This document shows, piece by piece, positions 11,130 through 59,570 of a DNA stretch of 64,000 bases. The notes beneath the pieces are model-generated. The model did no database searches and had not been told where the DNA came from. It worked only from the letters and a program-made list of their open reading frames with translations. Location of the stretch: positions 4,069-68,068 of the forward strand of contig JAZLBV010000011.1 of the NCBI GenBank assembly GCA_045613925.1. Reading direction: 5' to 3'. A program made the position numbers and the translations under genes. Positions within the stretch are counted from its first letter, which is position 1; each line of letters starts with the position of its first letter. This DNA is from Candidatus Enterousia sp. (GTDB lineage: Bacteria; Pseudomonadota; Alphaproteobacteria; Rs-D84).

Positions 11130-11690
11130 ATGGATAATAAAGAAAAATTTGTAAAATACGAAAAATTATTAAAACAATGGTCTGAAAAAATGAACCTTGT
11201 CGCACCAAGCACTTTGGTCGACATTCAGCACAGACATTTTGACGACAGCGCCCAATTGGCCGATTTTATCCCAAAAAACGCAAAAATTATCGATTTAGGA
11301 AGCGGTGCAGGTTTTCCGGGTGTAGTTCTGGCAATTTTGGGTTGGAACGTCATTTGTATCGAATCAATTTCAAAAAAGGCCGGCTTTTTATCAATTTTGA
11401 AGCAAGAATTAGATTTACCAAACCTGACTATTATTAACGATAGAATAGAAAATTTTTTTGCGAAAAGGCCGGTAAATGCCGGGGATTTTATATTGACCGC
11501 ACGGGCATTTGCACCGTTGATAAAGATTTTTGATTATACACACCGAACAAATTTCCGGCTTTTTTTGCTAAAAGGCCGGGAAATCAAAACCGAAATTGCG
11601 ACTGCAAAAAAGAAATATAAATTCGATTATGAATTACACCCATCAAAAACTGGCGACGGTTTTATTATTTGCGTAAAAAACTTAAAATAA
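11130..11690 (+). CDS. rsmG: 16S rRNA m7G527 methyltransferase RsmG (GidB)
   Basis: W..KMNLVA, RHF.DS.QL, IDLGSGAGFPG, TARAFAPL; precedes parAB. Confidence 0.92.
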   Translation: MDNKEKFVKYEKLLKQWSEKMNLVAPSTLVDIQHRHFDDSAQLADFIPKNAKIIDLGSGAGFPGVVLAILGWNVICIESISKKAGFLSILKQELDLPNLTIINDRIENFFAKRPVNAGDFILTARAFAPLIKIFDYTHRTNFRLFLLKGREIKTEIATAKKKYKFDYELHPSKTGDGFIICVKNLK

Positions 11691-12588: not shown

Positions 12589-13460
12589 CATCTAAATTTT
12601 TGGGAAAATCTCTTGCACAATTAAATCAAGAAATGGGGCAAATACCGGATATTTCTGTATTAACTGGGGGTGAACGCGTGGTTGTAAAACCTATTCCATT
12701 GGTACAAATTAGCCCAAACCCTGATCAACCACGAAAAACTTTTTCAGAAGCAGAATTGCGGGATTTATCAGAATCTATACGTGAAAAAGGCGTATTGGTT
12801 CCAATTATATTGCGAACCGTTCAAAACAAACCATATGTTTATGAAATTGTCGCGGGCGAACGTCGATATCGTGCAGCACAAATGGCCGGATTAAGCGAAA
12901 TTCCGGCATTGGTAAAGACTATGACAAATCAAAACGCAATGGAAATTGCATTAATTGAAAACGTACAACGTGAAAACCTGAACCCAATAGAAGAGGCCGA
13001 AGGTTATAAAAACCTGATGGAAAAGTGCGGATACACTATTGCAGATGTATCAAAATTAATTGGAAAATCTGAAAGCTATATTCGCAACCTTACACGCATA
13101 GTTTCATTGCCTGAATCTGTCAAAGAATTGGTAAAAAGCGGTGAATTGTCGGCATCACACGCACGTACAATCGCAGTATCAGATAATCCAGAACAGCTTG
13201 CACACGATATTATAAATAATAAACTATCTGTTGCAGATGCACAAAAATGTGTAAAAGATACCAATCGTTCAAAACGTTGCCGGTCTTTCGTTAAAACAAC
13301 ATTAAACAAAGAATATGTTGAAAAAATCGAATCAAAATTGCAAAAAACTTTAAAAACACCGGTAAAATTGCGTGAAAAACGGGGTGGGGCTGGCGAAATT
13401 ATTATTTCATTCGGCAGTCGTATCCAAATGGAAGATTTAATTGAAAAACTAACAAAATAG
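12585..13460 (+). CDS. parB: Chromosome partitioning protein ParB/Spo0J
   Basis: NPDQPRKTF, GERRYRAA CTP-binding motif, IENVQRENLNPIEEA, HTH. Confidence 0.95.
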   Translation: MTSKFLGKSLAQLNQEMGQIPDISVLTGGERVVVKPIPLVQISPNPDQPRKTFSEAELRDLSESIREKGVLVPIILRTVQNKPYVYEIVAGERRYRAAQMAGLSEIPALVKTMTNQNAMEIALIENVQRENLNPIEEAEGYKNLMEKCGYTIADVSKLIGKSESYIRNLTRIVSLPESVKELVKSGELSASHARTIAVSDNPEQLAHDIINNKLSVADAQKCVKDTNRSKRCRSFVKTTLNKEYVEKIESKLQKTLKTPVKLREKRGGAGEIIISFGSRIQMEDLIEKLTK

Positions 13461-13507: not shown

Positions 13508-13519
13508 ATTTTTCAACAA

Positions 13520-36028: not shown

Positions 36029-37681
36029 ATGCAAGAATTTGATGTTATTGTTATTGGTGGTGGACACGCGGGTGTTGAAGCAGCAACCGCATCTGCGCGA
36101 CGTGGGGCAAAAACACTGTTATTAACAATGCGTGAAAGTGATATAGGTGCAATGTCGTGTAATCCATCTATTGGTGGGCCCGGAAAATCGCAAATGGTTG
36201 CCGAAATGGCCGCATTTGGGGGTGTTATGCCGTGTGCGGCGGATTCTGCAGGAATTCATTGGCGAACATTGAATGCAACGCACGGGGCGGCAACCCAGGC
36301 TTTGCGTGCACAGATTGATAGAAATTTTTATCATAATGCGGTAATGAAAATTTTAGAAAACACCGGTAATTTGACGGTAATTTTTGAAAAAGTCATCGAT
36401 TTAGATATTGAAAAAAAATCTGTTAATAAAAAATATACTGCAAAATCGTTGGTGTTAACAACCGGGACTTTTCTGTGGGGGCTTGTCACGCGCGGAAATG
36501 AAAAAATTGAATCTGGGCGTTTAATGGACGATGGAAAATATCAAGAAAATGATACGGTGATATCAAAAATTCTTAAAAAGGCCGGCTTTGAACTGTTGCG
36601 GTTAAAGACGGGAACACCTGCACGAATTTATCGCGATAGTATTGATTTTAGGGTTTGTGAAGAACAACCCGGTGATTTTCCACACGATTGGTTTGGTGTG
36701 GGGGACGATAAAAACACATATAATGACAAATGTTTCATCACGCATACGAATGAAAAAACACATGAAATTATTCGGGAAAATATAAAAAACGCACCTATGT
36801 ATAACGGCGATATCAGGGGGCTGGGTCCGCGTTATTGTCCGTCTTTGGAAGATAAAGTAATGCGTTTTCCAGAACACACTTCACACCACGTGTTCTTAGA
36901 ACCCGAAGGTTTCAACAGCGATTTAATTTATCCAAACGGTATATCAACCAGTTTTGGTTCGGATATTCAAGATATTTGGATACGGACTATTCCTGGGTTA
37001 GAAAACGCCCGCATAGCGCGATATGGATACGCGATTGAATATGATGCAATTGATGCACGAAAATTAAAAACTACACTGGAATCAAAAGATATACCAGGGC
37101 TTTTTTTTGCGGGACAAATCAATGGAACATCTGGATACGAAGAAGCTGCAGCCCAAGGTCTGGTTGCTGGGGCAAATGCCGCTGCGTATGCATTAAATGT
37201 TGCACCATTGGTTTTAGATAGAACAAATTCTATGATTGGTGTTTTGATTGATGATATAACAACATTGGGGGTTGACGAACCATATCGTATGTTCACCTCT
37301 CGGGCAGAATACAGATTAAACCTGCGCGCAGATAATGCAATATTCAGATTGGGCTATACGGCACAATCTCTGGGATTGATAGATTCAGAAACATTTGAAA
37401 AAATAAAAAACATACGTGAAAAAGTTACCATAGAAAATGACAAATTTTATGCAGGTTATATATCACGTAATGAACGCGAAATTGAAAACTATAAAAAAGA
37501 TGCCGAATTAAAAATCCCACACGATTTTGATTATAAATCTATGCCGGGTTTAACAAACGAATTGGTTGAAAAATTAACAAAAACACGTCCTGAAAATATC
37601 GCCGCTTTATCACGAATTCCGGGTATGACACCGGCTGGAATTATTGTTGTTTTACGCAAAATAAAATGTGGAAATAAATAA
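36029..37681 (+). CDS. mnmG: tRNA uridine-5-carboxymethylaminomethyl modification enzyme MnmG (GidA)
   Basis: [67 protein letters not shown]. Confidence 0.95.
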
Positions 37682-56366: not shown

Positions 56367-56373
56367 AAAAAAA

Positions 56374-56390
56374 TACCCATGAAATGGGTA
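56374..56390 (-). terminator. rpmJ terminator
   Basis: TACCCAT-GAA-ATGGGTA; U-tract on the minus strand. Confidence 0.6.
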
Positions 56391-56413
56391 TAAAAACATC
56401 ATCCAATCGGATT

Positions 56414-56548
56414 TTATTTTCTTTTAAATCCTTGCTTTGCCTTTAACTTAGGATTAGAAGGATCAATCAAAATAACCTGTTTTCCACGGCGAATCTGTTT
56501 AATATTACCACGTTTTTTCCAGGCCTTTAACGAACTTAAAAATTTCAT
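56414..56548 (-). CDS. rpmJ: 50S ribosomal protein L36, Cys-free type B (absent from the ORF track)
   Basis: MKFLSSLKAWKKRGNIKQIRRGKQVILIDPSNPKLKAKQGFKRK; AAGGA RBS. Confidence 0.88.
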   Translation of the reverse strand: MKFLSSLKAWKKRGNIKQIRRGKQVILIDPSNPKLKAKQGFKRK

Positions 56549-56599
56549 ATCAAAATCCTTTTTGCTTTGTGCATTATAAACAAGTTTTAGAAAAAATCA

Positions 56600-56838
56600 A
56601 ATATTTATTATATTTTATTGTTTTTATTGTACCTGTTTATTGTATTAAAAACGTTTTTAAACTTTTTTTAAACAAGTTTTCAACAAAAAAATCTTTATTT
56701 TCTGGTATTTTTAGAGAAATTGTTGAAAATGTTATAATTATAAATATTGTGTTGAAAAATACAGATTTTTTAATATTTTCAACAATTTTTAATGTTTTTA
56801 CTTTTATGCTTGTTGAAAAAAGTTGAAATTGTTATAAT
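56600..56838. promoter_or_regulatory. AT-rich intergenic region with five TTTTCAACA boxes (candidate oriC or operator array) and virB3 promoter
   Basis: Boxes at 56677(+), 56721(-), 56750(-), 56776(+), 56811(-); TTTATTGT x3 at 56614-56643; TTGTTG-17-TATAAT at 56810-56838. Confidence 0.6.
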
Positions 56839-56859
56839 TGAAATAACCAGGAGAGGATT

Positions 56860-57156
56860 TTGAAACAAAAAGTTTTAAAAGCTTTGGCAAATCCGCCGCG
56901 CATATTTTATGTGCCTTATTCGTTAGCGCTTTTGAATTTTTTTGTTTGGTTTTTAACTTTTGTGGTTTCTATGGTGGTTTTTCTGATATTTACAGGAAAT
57001 ATTCCTATGTCTTTGCCACTTGTTTTTTTGGGTGTTTTATCTTTTTTTCATGCACTTTTGGGTGTTTATGCAAAAAAAGATTATCAAATTGCCCAAATTT
57101 TAATTGCAAGTTTTCAAGTTTTTAAAAATAAAATACCAAGAAGATTAGTGTCATAA
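56860..57156 (+). CDS. virB3: VirB3-like type IV secretion membrane protein (TTG start)
   Basis: 98 aa, KALANPPRIFYVPY resembling the VirB3 (A)L.RP..F.GVP motif, two TM helices, immediately before virB4. Confidence 0.75.
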   Translation: MKQKVLKALANPPRIFYVPYSLALLNFFVWFLTFVVSMVVFLIFTGNIPMSLPLVFLGVLSFFHALLGVYAKKDYQIAQILIASFQVFKNKIPRRLVS

Positions 57157-57158
57157 AA

Positions 57159-59570
57159 ATGGAAGAATTATTTAATTATTTTGCCGGTAATACAAATTCT
57201 ATGACTTTGATTTTTGTCATAGTTGCTATGTCTGTATTATTGGTTTTTATTGTGTTTTTGATGTATATTCCGGCGTTGACTAAAAAGATTTTGCCAAAAT
57301 TTGGTTATGCGAAATATTCTGATTATTTACCTTTTACCAGTGTTTATGATGATAACAGTATTGGAATCAGGGATGGTTCTTTGGTTCGGGTATATAAAAT
57401 TGCTGGTAAACAGACCAGTATGATGGATGAAAAAAATCGTGAAAAACTGCTTGATTTGCGGGCGCAATTATTTAATCAAATTCAAGATCCTGATGTTCAT
57501 TTACGCTTTTTTAGTATTCGTGATAGGGCGGATGAAAAAACCAATTATGAATTTCATCAACCTGTATTACAAAAAATATATGATAAATGGAATAACCAGG
57601 GGTTAAAGATATTTATTAATAGTTATTATGTTGTTATTTCTGTCAAAGGTCAAAATAATCGTGAAAAATTAAATCAATATTGTAATTATATTGAATCTAT
57701 ATTGTCTGCGTATGATCCAAAATTATTAAAACATAATGGTGTTGATAACATAGCAACATTTTTTGGTCGCATTTTATCACCTGTTAGTAAACCTGTGTTA
57801 AAAAGATGTGATGGTGATATTGCAAGTTTAGTTGCTGTGGATGATGTAGAATTTTTGAAAAATGGGATTATAAAGTATTCCAGCGGTAATAAAGCATATT
57901 ATGCAGCTGCGTTGTCTTTTAAAGTTGCACCAGATTATTTAGATGAAGAATTTTTTAATTCTGTTTTAACAATTCAAAACGAAATGATTTGTATGAATGG
58001 TTTTCATATTTTAAGACCAAATGATGTAGAAGCTTTGATTCGTCAACATCGTTCGACTATGACAGAAGAAAATCAATTATCAACAATAGAGCAAATAAGT
58101 GAAGCCCAGATATCTTTGGATGAAAATATAACAGGGGCACAGACTTTGGTTGATTATTATCCGTTGTTTATGTTGTTTGGATATAATCTGGATGAACTTG
58201 ATGATAGTATATCTGAATTTAAAAAGATTTGTGCATCGTTTGGTGTTGCACCTGTGGTTGAAAATTTTGCAGCCAAAGTTTCATTTTTTGCACAAATCCC
58301 TGGTTTTGATATTTTCCCACGCAGTTTTAAGATGTTGTCAAAGACTGCCGCTGTAAGTATACCTTTGTCTACTATGCCAACGGGTATAAAAAATAGTGAT
58401 TGGGGTCCGGGACCTTTGGTTGTATTTCCAACCGCGCAAGGTACACCATATCAATTTCAATTCCATGTTTCTGATAAACCGGCGGCGGTGGGACATACTT
58501 TGACAATTGGGCCAACTGGTGGTGGTAAGACAACTTTGTTCTCGTTCTTGATTGCTCAGTCATTAAGACATCAAAAGTTGAAAGCGTTTTTCTTTGACAG
58601 AAATAAAGGTGCAGAAGTATTTACTTTGGCCGTGGATGGAAAATATATAACTATGAATGGCAAAGAAAAAGATTCTAAAAAAGATGTATTTTTAACACAT
58701 TTGAATCCATTAAAAATGCCTGATACAGCTGCAAATCGTGCGTTTTTAAGACGTTGGTTGTCTATGATAACTGGGCAAAATGATGTTTTATCTAATGATG
58801 AAATTGCGCGTGCTGTGTCTGTTAATTTTGATTATTTATCAAATAAAGATAGATTATTAAAAAATCTTTACGAAAGTTGTTTTTCTTCGAATGGAACCAT
58901 GCGTGGTGAATTAAGAAAATGGGTAGATCCATTGCAATATGGTGATATTTTTAATGAAAATGAAGATACTTTGGATTTAAATTCTCGGTTAACCACTTTT
59001 GATTTTACTGAGATTTTACAAGATGAAGTTTTAGCGCCTGCGGTTATATCTTATATATTACATAGAATTAATAATATAACTGTGTCTGGGGGAAATCCAT
59101 CGTTGATTATGATTGATGAAACAGCGCCTATGTTAGAAAACAAAATGTTCCGCGATAGTTTTGTTGCAGGATTACAAGAAGGTCGTAAGAATCGCCAGGC
59201 CTATATGGTTGCTTTTCAGCGTGCAAATGTTTTAGATAAACTTGGGATAGGTGATGTTGTTCGTGGCCAGACCCAGACTGTGTTATTCTTCCGTAATCCG
59301 GCGGCAGATGTTTCTGATTATGAAAAATGGAATTTGAATCCTTTGGAAATGGCATTTATTCAGGGCAAAGCATATCCAAATCTTAAACGTGCTGTGTTGT
59401 TATTACGTCGTGTTAATAATGAATCTGTTATTTTAAATACAGAATTAGGCGGGCTTGGTAATTTATTACGGTTGTTTGAATCTGGGCGTAAATCTGTGCT
59501 TTTGGCAGAAGAATTATACAAAAACTATGGCGATAGTTTTGTTTCGGAATATCTTAAAAAACAGGGATAA
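57159..59570 (+). CDS. virB4: VirB4 family type IV secretion ATPase
   Basis: 803 aa, GHTL.IGPTGGGKTTL Walker A, FFDRNKG, IMIDE Walker B, GRK, LN..E. Confidence 0.9.
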   Translation: MEELFNYFAGNTNSMTLIFVIVAMSVLLVFIVFLMYIPALTKKILPKFGYAKYSDYLPFTSVYDDNSIGIRDGSLVRVYKIAGKQTSMMDEKNREKLLDLRAQLFNQIQDPDVHLRFFSIRDRADEKTNYEFHQPVLQKIYDKWNNQGLKIFINSYYVVISVKGQNNREKLNQYCNYIESILSAYDPKLLKHNGVDNIATFFGRILSPVSKPVLKRCDGDIASLVAVDDVEFLKNGIIKYSSGNKAYYAAALSFKVAPDYLDEEFFNSVLTIQNEMICMNGFHILRPNDVEALIRQHRSTMTEENQLSTIEQISEAQISLDENITGAQTLVDYYPLFMLFGYNLDELDDSISEFKKICASFGVAPVVENFAAKVSFFAQIPGFDIFPRSFKMLSKTAAVSIPLSTMPTGIKNSDWGPGPLVVFPTAQGTPYQFQFHVSDKPAAVGHTLTIGPTGGGKTTLFSFLIAQSLRHQKLKAFFFDRNKGAEVFTLAVDGKYITMNGKEKDSKKDVFLTHLNPLKMPDTAANRAFLRRWLSMITGQNDVLSNDEIARAVSVNFDYLSNKDRLLKNLYESCFSSNGTMRGELRKWVDPLQYGDIFNENEDTLDLNSRLTTFDFTEILQDEVLAPAVISYILHRINNITVSGGNPSLIMIDETAPMLENKMFRDSFVAGLQEGRKNRQAYMVAFQRANVLDKLGIGDVVRGQTQTVLFFRNPAADVSDYEKWNLNPLEMAFIQGKAYPNLKRAVLLLRRVNNESVILNTELGGLGNLLRLFESGRKSVLLAEELYKNYGDSFVSEYLKKQG

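What the first reader, a model, noticed from the sequence alone, without database searches (positions are those of the whole stretch)
56600..56838. Candidate replication origin with variant DnaA boxes (TTTTCAACA x5)
Seen: five identical 9-mers in both orientations within 143 bp, where a rough composition estimate expects below 0.01. They adjoin an extremely AT-rich stretch with three TTTATTGT repeats in a ~310-bp intergenic gap. Known: the DnaA box consensus is TTWTNCACA (one mismatch here), and origins combine box clusters with an AT-rich unwinding element. Typically origin-linked genes (mnmG, rsmG-parAB, rnpA-yidD, recF) are in this window. Inference: oriC with a lineage-specific box. Alternatively an operator array for virB3-virB4, since the last box overlaps its -35.
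Basis: partly seen in the sequence, partly recalled or inferred. Interest (0 to 1): 0.65.

Follow-up and report, generated by a model that had tools for sequence, protein, structure and literature searches.

The report
Replication origin with variant DnaA boxes
This 310-base gap is very probably the chromosome's replication origin in a tiny uncultured gut alphaproteobacterium (Candidatus Enterousia), built from a lineage-specific spelling of the DnaA binding site whose last copy also sits on the promoter of a type IV secretion operon; it is a useful annotation, not a new kind of element.

Summary
TTTTCAACA occurs five times in 143 bp, and there are seven TTWTNAACA boxes in the 311-bp rpmJ|virB3 gap. 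This is the only such cluster in the 870-kb assembly and in a closed genome of the same genus. No cluster of canonical TTWTNCACA boxes exists anywhere in either.

The origin reading is supported by four lines of evidence.
- **Conservation:** the boxes keep their positions in 36 Enterousia genomes. Letters 1-4 and 6-9 are nearly fixed and letter 5 is free, the same degenerate position as in TTATNCACA.
- **Skew:** gene-corrected GC3 skew changes sign at this gap or within 11 kb of it in five genomes. In the closed genome the skew maximum lies opposite the gap.
- **DnaA:** its DNA-reading residues are altered (P423T, T435A, H439Y). They are invariant in 28 other alphaproteobacterial families.
- **Sister family:** there the same box type (TTATT[C/A]ACA) clusters next to parB, at that lineage's skew switch. 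It is absent from the virB3 promoter, so the boxes follow the origin and not the operon.

The A-at-position-6 box has a precedent in Mollicutes. Verdict: oriC, confidence about 0.8; a new member of a known kind.

The parts
56549..56859 (.). Candidate oriC: the whole rpmJ|virB3 intergenic gap (311 bp, 81% A+T)
   Evidence: It holds the unique box cluster. Mean column identity is 69% across 18 relatives. The skew switch lies at or next to it.
56585..56676 (.). AT-rich stretch (86% A+T), candidate DNA-unwinding element, with TTTATTGT x3 at 56614, 56623 and 56636
   Evidence: Among the least stable 0.06% of 80-bp windows in the genome. A T-T-N three-base pattern is invariant across relatives. Unwinding itself is inferred, not shown.
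56666..56674 (+). Box 0, TTTTAAACA. It is co-oriented with box 1 and separated from it by 2 bp
   Evidence: An exact TTWTNAACA stands at this aligned site in 22 of 36 genomes.
56677..56685 (+). Box 1, TTTTCAACA
   Evidence: Present in 36 of 36 genomes. Letter 5 varies (C 25, A 9, T 2) while the other eight letters are invariant.
56721..56729 (-). Box 2, TTTTCAACA
   Evidence: Exact TTWTNAACA in 25 of 36 genomes.
56750..56758 (-). Box 3, TTTTCAACA
   Evidence: Exact in 26 of 36 genomes and within one mismatch in 33 of 36. Letter 5 is free (T 16, C 15, A 4, G 1).
56776..56784 (+). Box 4, TTTTCAACA
   Evidence: Exact in 24 of 36 genomes. Letter 5 is free (T 14, A 12, C 10) while AACA is invariant.
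56811..56819 (-). Box 5, TTTTCAACA, overlapping the -35 position of the virB3 promoter
   Evidence: Exact in 35 of 36 genomes, and here letter 5 is also fixed. It lies inside the invariant block CTTGTTGAAAAAAGTTGAAATTGTTATAAT.
56810..56838 (+). virB3-virB4 promoter: TTGTTG, a 17-nt spacer, then TATAAT with an extended -10 TG (TGTTATAAT, 56830-56838)
   Evidence: Read from the sequence. The block is nearly invariant in relatives. The promoter scan did not list it, because its -35 matches only 3 of 6 letters.
56573..56600 (-). rpmJ promoter: TTGATT, a 16-nt spacer, then TATAAT
   Evidence: 10 of 12 matches. This accounts for the conserved AATCAAATATTTA block, which also fits the IHF consensus.
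56414..56548 (-). rpmJ (ribosomal protein L36), the left flank
   Evidence: PF00444, E = 4.8e-5; translation read.
56860..59570 (+). virB3 (56860-57156) and virB4 (57159-59570), the right flank, transcribed away from the origin
   Evidence: PF05101, PF03135. GC3 skew is +0.80 and +0.50, as for leading-strand genes.

Best explanation
The rpmJ|virB3 gap is the chromosomal replication origin (oriC) of this Candidatus Enterousia genome (Alphaproteobacteria, order Rs-D84).

**Proposed mechanism (inferred).** DnaA binds six to seven 9-mers of the form TT(T/A)TNAACA. This is the DnaA box with A in place of C at position 6. The boxes stand in both orientations over about 155 bp and include a co-oriented pair 2 bp apart. 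The bound DnaA then opens the adjacent 86% A+T stretch, and forks leave in both directions.

**Link to DnaA.** The variant box goes with changes in DnaA's DNA-reading residues: P423T, T435A and H439Y in E. coli numbering.

**Link to the T4SS operon.** The box nearest virB3 overlaps the -35 position of the virB3-virB4 promoter. DnaA occupancy therefore probably also modulates that operon.

**What is shown and what is inferred.**
- Shown: the uniqueness of the cluster, its conservation, the pattern of conservation within the box, its coincidence with the strand-skew switch, and the DnaA substitutions.
- Inferred: DnaA binding, unwinding, and the promoter coupling.
For: **1. Uniqueness.**
- This is the only cluster of the 9-mer in the 870-kb assembly.
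- It is the top TTWTNAACA cluster in the assembly, and also in the closed 958,618-bp genome G098 of the same genus (7 boxes in 240 bp; the next best has 3-4).
- No cluster of canonical TTWTNCACA exists in either genome.

**2. Conservation.**
- 36 Enterousia genomes carry 3-8 boxes (median 5) at the same aligned sites, and none carries a canonical box there.
- Within boxes 1, 3 and 4, letters 1-4 and 6-9 are nearly invariant while letter 5 varies freely. That is the N of TTATNCACA.
- The free letter corresponds to the G of the -35-like TTGAAA inside the box, so promoter function is not what is being conserved.

**3. Skew.** I used cumulative GC3 skew corrected for gene strand.
- The global minimum falls exactly at the gap in G001 (400 kb of a 532-kb contig) and in G003.
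- In G002, G098 and this genome the curve is flat for the 11 kb to the left, then rises steeply from virB3.
- In G098 the maximum lies at 677-690 kb. The point opposite the gap is 684 kb.
- Pooled over 36 genomes within 6-8 kb of the gap: left of it, plus-strand genes score -0.014 and minus-strand genes +0.211. Right of it, they score +0.266 and +0.093. Right-plus exceeds left-plus in 36 of 36 genomes.

**4. DnaA.**
- 28 other alphaproteobacterial families all have SLP[ED]IG...RDHTT[VI].H. This genome has SLTEIG...RDHATVVYA.
- The Bac_DnaA_C domain scores 70.7 bits here, against 101-117 bits elsewhere in the class.
- Residues 399, 423, 432-435 and 438-439 make the base-specific contacts (PMC5043019).
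- The helix at 434-451 reads TnCACA, and R399, which is conserved here, reads TTA (PMC5742627).

**5. The boxes follow the origin, not the operon.**
- In family f43 (G067, G065, G048) the top cluster is TTATT[C/A]ACA, in the gap just after rsmG-parA-parB.
- That gap is at the skew switch in G067 and within 1 kb of it in G065.
- There is no box at the virB3 promoter in f43, and virB4 has lagging-strand skew there (-0.39).

**6. Precedent.** The Mollicutes DnaA-box consensus is TT(A/T)TC(C/A)ACA (PMC3322544).

**7. Autoregulation hint.** One TGTTNAAAA box is conserved upstream of dnaA in 6 of 7 genomes.
Against: - **No direct data.** There are no binding, unwinding or marker-frequency results.
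- **The skew minimum is not always at the gap.** In this genome and in G098 it lies about 11 kb to the left (window 45.4 kb; G098 194 kb). The mreC-to-rpmJ segment is skew-neutral, so skew alone places the origin only within about 11 kb.
- **The AT-rich stretch is not unique.** About 40 equally unstable places exist in the genome.
- **No further origin landmarks.** The geometry of the boxes and the T-rich repeats does not fit the B. subtilis box-pair/DnaA-trio arrangement. There are no GANTC or GATC sites and only one TTAA-N7-TTAA. dnaA is 150-165 kb away.
- **Box 5's invariance may be a promoter effect.** It could be due to the promoter alone.
- **One f43 genome lacks a minimum.** G048 shows only a change of slope at its box cluster, not a minimum.
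- **The related genomes are not independent samples.**
Confidence: 0.8

Rival explanations
1. The cluster does bind DnaA but is not the origin. It would be a DnaA-controlled promoter region for virB3-virB4, or a datA-like titration site. The true initiation site would lie elsewhere in the skew-neutral zone to the left, for example nearer parAB or the rpmI|mreC junction.
For: - The corrected skew minimum lies 11 kb to the left in this genome and in G098.
- Box 5 overlaps the promoter.
- In family f43 the origin candidate lies next to parB. Here two exact boxes lie at the end of parB, at window 13316 and 13510.
Against: - No other box cluster, of either spelling, exists in the assembly or in the closed genome.
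- The other gaps in the 11-kb neutral segment are 47-127 bp. The 308-bp gap at 45.4 kb is filled by rpmI.
- G001 and G003 have their skew minimum exactly at this gap.
- The minus-strand genes just left of the gap have leading-strand skew when pooled (+0.21).
Confidence: 0.12
2. The 9-mers are an operator array for a dedicated transcription factor, not DnaA, that controls the type IV secretion operon. Their position at the skew switch would be a coincidence.
For: - The boxes lie directly upstream of virB3, and the last one overlaps the -35 position.
- The proximal promoter block is invariant.
- Regulators of T4SS loci are known in Rickettsiales (from my own knowledge).
Against: - In f43 the virB3 promoter has no such box, while the same box family clusters beside parB at the skew switch.
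- Outside the cluster the motif is not enriched between genes (29 of 294 hits against 8.4% intergenic DNA), and no intergenic hit lies before the next run of plus-strand genes on the contig, about 11 kb downstream, whose products I did not identify.
- The motif matches TTWTNCACA at 8 of 9 letters, with the same free fifth letter.
- DnaA's own reading residues are changed in this lineage.
Confidence: 0.05
3. The repeats are a chance product of very AT-rich, low-complexity intergenic DNA and have no function of their own.
For: The gap is 81% A+T. TTTATTGT is not enriched in the window overall (11 copies against 12.3 expected).
Against: - None of 20,000 composition-matched shuffles of the gap reaches the observed counts.
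- The box positions are conserved across 36 species whose VirB4 proteins are 59-84% identical to this one, while letter 5 and the flanks drift.
Confidence: 0.01

Closest known systems
Escherichia coli oriC (DnaA boxes R1-R5 of form TTATNCACA, AT-rich 13-mer unwinding element)
   Same: - A compact size of about 250-300 bp.
- Several 9-mer boxes in both orientations, some only 2 bp apart.
- An adjacent AT-rich stretch whose T-rich strand carries TTATT/TTGTT words.
- Transcription units at the edges.
- Position at the skew minimum.
   Different: - Every box has A instead of C at position 6, and TTTT instead of TTAT.
- No GATC sites.
- The box nearest the AT-rich stretch has the opposite orientation to R1.
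- The neighbours are rpmJ and virB3, not gidA and mioC.
- DnaA has P423T, T435A and H439Y.
Mollicutes oriC boxes (Mycoplasma pulmonis, Spiroplasma citri and others): consensus TT(A/T)TC(C/A)ACA (Cordova et al. 2002, as cited in PMC3322544)
   Same: - The same spelling, with A allowed at position 6 and T or A at position 3.
- AT-rich, reduced genomes.
- TTTTCAACA and TTATCAACA are both named there as mollicute boxes.
   Different: - A different phylum.
- Mollicute boxes flank dnaA, whereas here dnaA is 150-165 kb away.
- Enterousia uses A6 only, whereas Mollicutes and sister family f43 mix C6 and A6.
- I could not compare the DnaA residues of Mollicutes.
Caulobacter crescentus Cori and the Wolbachia/Rickettsiales origins (alphaproteobacterial type)
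   Same: The same class of bacteria. The origin is not next to dnaA, a promoter lies inside or at the edge of it, and the DnaA boxes are weak or non-canonical.
   Different: - hemE is absent from this genome.
- There is one TTAA-N7-TTAA word, only partly conserved, instead of several CtrA sites.
- No GANTC sites.
Epsilonproteobacterial origins (Helicobacter and Arcobacter: box TCATTCACN, with changes in DnaA helix 5; PMC5043019)
   Same: A lineage-specific box spelling goes together with substitutions at DnaA positions 423, 435 and 438-439.
   Different: There the changed letter is position 5 (a fixed T). Here it is position 6, and position 5 stays free. The epsilonproteobacterial case is backed by footprinting; this one is not.
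Bacillus subtilis basal unwinding system (co-oriented box pair plus DnaA-trios; PMC10721633)
   Same: A co-oriented pair of boxes 2 bp apart (box 0 and box 1). The pair is conserved in Enterousia and also seen in G067 of family f43.
   Different: No convincing run of central-A trios on the correct side and strand of the pair. The conserved three-base T-T-N pattern lies on the wrong side for that geometry.

Membership tests
DnaA-dependent bacterial chromosomal origin (oriC) | Cluster of several DnaA-box-like 9-mers in a non-coding region | tested here: met
   Seven TTWTNAACA boxes lie in 311 bp. This is the unique top cluster in this assembly and in closed genome G098.
DnaA-dependent bacterial chromosomal origin (oriC) | Position at the switch of replication-strand composition skew, opposite the terminus | tested here: met
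   The corrected GC3-skew minimum falls at the gap in G001 and G003, and within 11 kb of it in G002, G098 and this genome. In G098 the maximum lies at 677-690 kb and the point opposite the gap is 684 kb.
DnaA-dependent bacterial chromosomal origin (oriC) | Adjacent AT-rich DNA-unwinding element | tested here: inconclusive
   Positions 56585-56676 are 86% A+T and in the least stable 0.06% of windows, but about 40 other such places exist. Unwinding was not tested.
DnaA-dependent bacterial chromosomal origin (oriC) | Conservation of the element across related genomes | tested here: met
   36 of 36 Enterousia genomes carry 3-8 boxes at aligned sites. Clusters also occur in families f1 and f42 of the order.
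DnaA-dependent bacterial chromosomal origin (oriC) | DnaA binds the boxes and replication starts there (footprint, marker frequency, autonomous replication) | not testable with these tools
   The organism is uncultured.
Canonical DnaA box TT(A/T)TNCACA | C at position 6 | tested here: not met
   All boxes have A at position 6. No canonical box occurs in the gap in any of 36 genomes. Sister family f43 mixes TTATTCACA and TTATTAACA.
Canonical DnaA box TT(A/T)TNCACA | Free fifth letter, T or A at the third, remaining letters fixed | tested here: met
   Letter 5 is C/A/T(/G) in boxes 1, 3 and 4. Letter 3 is T here and A in families f42 and f43. The other letters are 89-100% fixed.
Mollicutes-type DnaA box TT(A/T)TC(C/A)ACA | Spelling fits the published consensus | tested here: met
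   TTTTCAACA fits it exactly (PMC3322544). This is a shared spelling, not shared ancestry.
Caulobacter-type alphaproteobacterial origin | Lies next to hemE, with several CtrA sites (TTAA-N7-TTAA) and GANTC methylation sites | tested here: not met
   hemE is absent from the genome. There is one TTAA-N7-TTAA, which is not conserved in all relatives, and no GANTC.
Basal unwinding system (box pair plus DnaA-trios) | Co-oriented box pair directly followed by at least 3 trinucleotides with a central A on the correct strand | tested here: inconclusive
   The pair is present (56666 and 56677, 2 bp apart). The flanking sequence is poorly conserved and fits trios only trivially, and the conserved T-T-N pattern lies on the other side (read).
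Operator array of the virB3-virB4 promoter | The motif accompanies the virB3 promoter wherever the operon occurs | tested here: not met
   The 13 surveyed genomes of families f43 and f46 show at most two, usually no, boxes within 1 kb upstream of virB4. In f43 the cluster sits beside parB, 2.4 kb beyond the 3' end of virB4.

The most novel reading that the evidence does not exclude
In the order Rs-D84, DnaA and its box have drifted together. The whole order carries T435A and H439Y.
- Families that keep P423 (f43, f45) mix C and A at box position 6.
- Families that have lost P423 (f1 Enterousia with S/T; f42 with M/N/T) use A only.

Enterousia would then have an initiator-origin pair partly orthogonal to that of other Alphaproteobacteria. 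Because the terminal box is also the -35 region of virB3-virB4, expression of the secretion ATPase would be tied to the initiation potential of the cell.

A further unexplained feature could belong to the same story. One replichore has half the composition skew of the other in G098, and none at all in G067. That would fit initiation that is often one-sided.
Probability: 0.3. Interest if true: 0.6.

Novelty: new member of a known kind. Interest (0 to 1): 0.4.

Why it matters
- **A usable origin coordinate.** It gives the first evidence-based origin for Candidatus Enterousia and the order Rs-D84, a widespread group of reduced-genome bacteria in animal guts. That coordinate is needed to estimate growth rate from metagenomic coverage and to orient and check assemblies.
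- **A gap in origin finders.** Finders that look only for TTATCCACA-like words, or that expect dnaA or hemE nearby, would miss this origin.
- **A natural experiment on DnaA specificity.** T435 is regarded as decisive for sequence-specific binding in E. coli. Here alanine replaces it across a whole order, together with tolerance of, and then a requirement for, A at box position 6. This can be tested with recombinant domain IV and short oligonucleotides.
- **A simple testable circuit.** The overlap of an origin box with a T4SS promoter links the state of replication initiation to the expression of a secretion system.

Tried and rejected
1. **Rival origin site at window 45.4 kb.** This is where the corrected skew minimum lies in this genome. 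The 308-bp apparent gap there is filled by rpmI, leaving 92 bp and no boxes.
2. **Second-best box cluster, on contig C4 (20.9-21.1 kb).** It lies inside a coding sequence and was treated as chance.
3. **Concern that T4SS genes have an intrinsically high GC3 skew.** That would fake the rise at virB3. It was rejected because in family f43 virB4 sits on the other strand and scores -0.39.
4. **IHF site.** AATCAAATATTTA (56595-56607) fits WATCAANNNNTTR and is conserved. However, it coincides with the -35/spacer of the rpmJ promoter (TTGATT-16-TATAAT), so it is not counted as origin evidence.
5. **DnaA-trio / basal-unwinding geometry.** It does not fit.
6. **CtrA and CcrM hallmarks.** One TTAA-N7-TTAA, no GANTC, no GATC.
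7. **Boxes as mere -35 hexamers (TTGAAA).** Rejected, because the freely varying letter is the G of that hexamer.
8. **Regulon idea.** Outside the cluster the motif is not enriched in intergenic DNA: 29 of 294 hits against 8.4% intergenic.
9. **Known RNA families in the gap.** Nothing came near the gathering scores.
10. **Origin relocation or two active origins (parB site and virB3 site).** This was meant to explain the weak-skew zone. It is not needed, because the zone carries the sign expected for a single origin at the gap, only weaker.
13. **Fujikawa et al. 2003.** The paper is not held, so residue-to-base assignments come from two reviews.

Full report
**What is in the sequence.** The gap 56549-56859 (311 bp, 81% A+T) lies between two diverging genes. 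On the left is rpmJ (ribosomal protein L36, 56414-56548, minus strand). On the right are virB3 (56860-57156) and virB4 (57159-59570), both on the plus strand.

TTTTCAACA occurs at 56677(+), 56721(-), 56750(-), 56776(+) and 56811(-). Relaxing the pattern to TTWTNAACA adds 56666(+), which is 2 bp from the box at 56677 and co-oriented with it. It also adds 56574, which belongs to the rpmJ promoter.

None of 20,000 dinucleotide-preserving shuffles of the gap reaches these counts. The genome holds 78 copies of the 9-mer, and this is its only cluster.

Left of the boxes, positions 56585-56676 are 86% A+T and carry TTTATTGT three times. Right of them lies a promoter with an extended -10 (TGTTATAAT, 56830-56838). 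The last box occupies its -35 position.

**Who it belongs to.** The window is C11:4069-68068 of an 870-kb, 19-contig assembly. VirB4 finds 40 loci in gut and rumen MAGs labelled Candidatus Enterousia or Alphaproteobacteria, at 59-84% identity for the full-length matches. Enterousia belongs to the uncultured order Rs-D84, all of whose members have reduced genomes (PMC12306168).

**Conservation.** The boxes keep their places upstream of virB3 in nearly all relatives. In an alignment of 36 genomes, each has 3-8 TTWTNAACA boxes (median 5) in 332 bp and no canonical TTWTNCACA.

Within boxes 1, 3 and 4, letters 1-4 and 6-9 are 89-100% fixed. Letter 5 drifts freely (C 25/A 9/T 2; T 16/C 15/A 4/G 1; T 14/A 12/C 10). 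That is the information profile of the DnaA box TT(A/T)TNCACA with a single change, C to A at position 6.

The free letter is also the G of the -35-like hexamer TTGAAA inside the box. The boxes are therefore not conserved as promoters. Only box 5, which overlaps the real promoter, has letter 5 fixed.

**Replication-strand evidence.** Raw GC skew in this lineage largely follows the gene strand. I therefore used third-codon-position skew per gene and subtracted a common transcription term.

| Genome | Where the corrected minimum falls |
|---|---|
| G001 (400 kb of a 532-kb contig) | Global minimum directly after virB3, i.e. at the gap |
| G003 | Exactly at the gap |
| G002 | Flat for 12 kb, then rises from virB3 |
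| This genome | Window 45.4 kb; near-flat to 56.5 kb; steep rise from virB3 |
| G098 (closed, 958,618 bp, same genus) | Flat 178-205 kb; minimum at 194 kb; steep rise from virB3 at 205.3 kb |

In G098 the skew maximum lies at 677-690 kb, and the point opposite the gap is 684 kb.

Pooling 36 genomes within 6-8 kb of the gap gives these GC3 skews:

| Side of gap | Plus-strand genes | Minus-strand genes |
|---|---|---|
| Left | -0.014 | +0.211 |
| Right | +0.266 | +0.093 |

The replication term therefore changes sign across the gap. Right-plus exceeds left-plus in 36 of 36 genomes.

Skew alone fixes the origin only to the 11-kb segment from mreC to virB3. Within that segment this is the only gap longer than 127 bp, because the 308-bp gap at 45.4 kb is filled by rpmI. 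dnaA lies 150-165 kb away, and the skew runs straight through it.

**The initiator is altered in step.** Enterousia DnaA reads SLTEIG...GGRDHATVVYA, where E. coli has SLPEIG...GGRDHTTVLHA. The changes are P423T, T435A and H439Y. R399, D433 and H434 are kept.

Twenty-eight other alphaproteobacterial families, sampled evenly, all have P423, T435 and H439. Their DnaA_C domain scores 101-117 bits, against 70.7 here.

Residues 399, 423, 432-435 and 438-439 make the base-specific contacts (PMC5043019). The helix at 434-451 reads the TnCACA half of the box, and R399 reads the TTA half (PMC5742627). The changed box letter therefore lies in the half read by the changed helix.

Across the order, T435A and H439Y are general. 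Residue 423 is P in families f43 and f45, M/N/T in f42, and S/T in f1.

**The decisive comparison.** If the 9-mers were operators of the virB3 promoter, they should travel with that promoter. They do not.

The genomes surveyed from families f43 (eleven), f46 (two) and f44 (one) have at most two, and usually no, boxes upstream of virB3. Families f1 and f42 have clusters there.

In f43 genome G067 the strongest cluster, within the 400 kb of contig C1 that I could fetch, lies in the gap just after rsmG-parA-parB. It holds seven boxes: TTATTCACA twice, TTATTAACA three times, TTATAAACA and TTATACACA. That is where the corrected skew turns from flat to steeply rising. virB3-virB4 lie 2.4 kb away on the other strand, with lagging-strand skew of -0.39.

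G065 repeats this result: five boxes, with the skew minimum within 1 kb. G048 has the cluster but shows only a change of slope.

So the box family marks the skew switch in two families whose flanking genes differ. The sister family also mixes the canonical C with A at position 6. This gives a plausible evolutionary series: TTATTCACA, then TTATTAACA, then TTTTCAACA.

**Comparison with what is known.** This is an ordinary DnaA-type origin in its architecture.
- **Box spelling.** It has a precedent. The Mollicutes consensus is TT(A/T)TC(C/A)ACA, and TTTTCAACA is named there as a mollicute box (PMC3322544).
- **Caulobacter-type origins.** It differs from them. hemE is absent from the genome, there are no GANTC sites, and there is one weak CtrA-like word.
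- **B. subtilis unwinding system.** It shares only the co-oriented box pair.
- **IHF site.** An apparent IHF site is better explained as the rpmJ promoter.
- **RNA families.** No Rfam family matches.

**What remains open.** Binding, unwinding and promoter coupling are all inferred. The coverage test could not be run.

An unexplained observation is that the two replichores differ in skew strength. In G098 the replication term is +0.16 to +0.25 on one arm and -0.06 to -0.13 on the other. In G067 it is +0.38 on one arm and about 0 over 230 kb of the other. This accounts for the flat zone left of the gap. It does not change the sign argument.

**Verdict.** Its alternative, operator only, is disfavoured. 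A dual role for the last box as an operator remains likely.

Noticed in passing
G098 whole chromosome (L172-L219); G067:C1:200000-600000 (L220-L239): The two replichores differ in the strength of GC3 skew. In closed genome G098 the replication term is +0.16 to +0.25 on the virB side and only -0.06 to -0.13 on the other. In f43 genome G067 it is +0.38 on one side of the box cluster and about 0 over at least 230 kb on the other. No explanation was found. Candidates are inversions, partly one-sided replication, or an assembly artefact.
   Followed up: partly
G000 contig C14:38729-39051 (upstream of dnaA); the same block in G001-G006: A strongly conserved block upstream of dnaA holds one TGTTNAAAA box in 6 of 7 genomes. 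This genome has a second near-box (TTTTCAACC). It may be DnaA autoregulation through the variant box.
   Followed up: partly
window 13316-13324 (-) and 13510-13518 (+): Two exact TTTTCAACA boxes lie at the 3' end of parB and in the 59-bp parB|pal gap. This is the position where sister family f43 has its origin-like cluster. They could be a relic or a secondary DnaA site.
   Followed up: no
window 1-64000: TTWTNAACA is enriched over the whole window even outside the gap: 52 copies against 28.4 expected, with a maximum of 42 in 100 shuffles. In closed genome G098 the density is only modestly higher near the origin. The strand of the motif flips between replichores (58/118 against 104/65).
   Followed up: partly
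window 56710-56738 (+): A second promoter-like site with an extended -10 (TTTAGA-17-TATAAT, preceded by TG) lies about 100 bp upstream of the conserved virB3 promoter. It is present in this genome but not conserved in relatives.
   Followed up: partly
window 36029-37681 (+) and 11130-11690 (+): mnmG lies 25 kb from rsmG-parAB instead of next to it. It is short: 550 aa, matching model positions 1-469 of 616.
   Followed up: no
window 56373-56391 (-): A terminator-like hairpin with a T-run lies in the 47-bp gap between the converging sufD-like gene and rpmJ.
   Followed up: no
L209 (G098:C1:742290-742350): In the closed relative, an intergenic run of five tandem copies of TGTGCAAAA-like words (TTGTGCAAATTTTGTGCAAAAAATGTGCAAAATTGTGTCAAATTGTGCAAAAA). 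It was picked up as the only small cluster of TTWTNCACA-like words. Function unknown.
   Followed up: no
L166 (G051, family f45), 825-985 bp upstream of virB4: A five-box cluster mixes canonical C6 boxes (TTTTTCACA, TTATTCACA, TTTTCCACA) with A6 boxes (TTTTTAACA, TTATTAACA). This lineage's DnaA keeps P423 and T435. It fits the idea that residue 423 tracks the loss of C at box position 6.
   Followed up: no
G049 (family f44), C22:48685-48885: The DnaA C-terminal domain of this family scores only 47 bits against PF08299. That is even more divergent than Enterousia.
   Followed up: no
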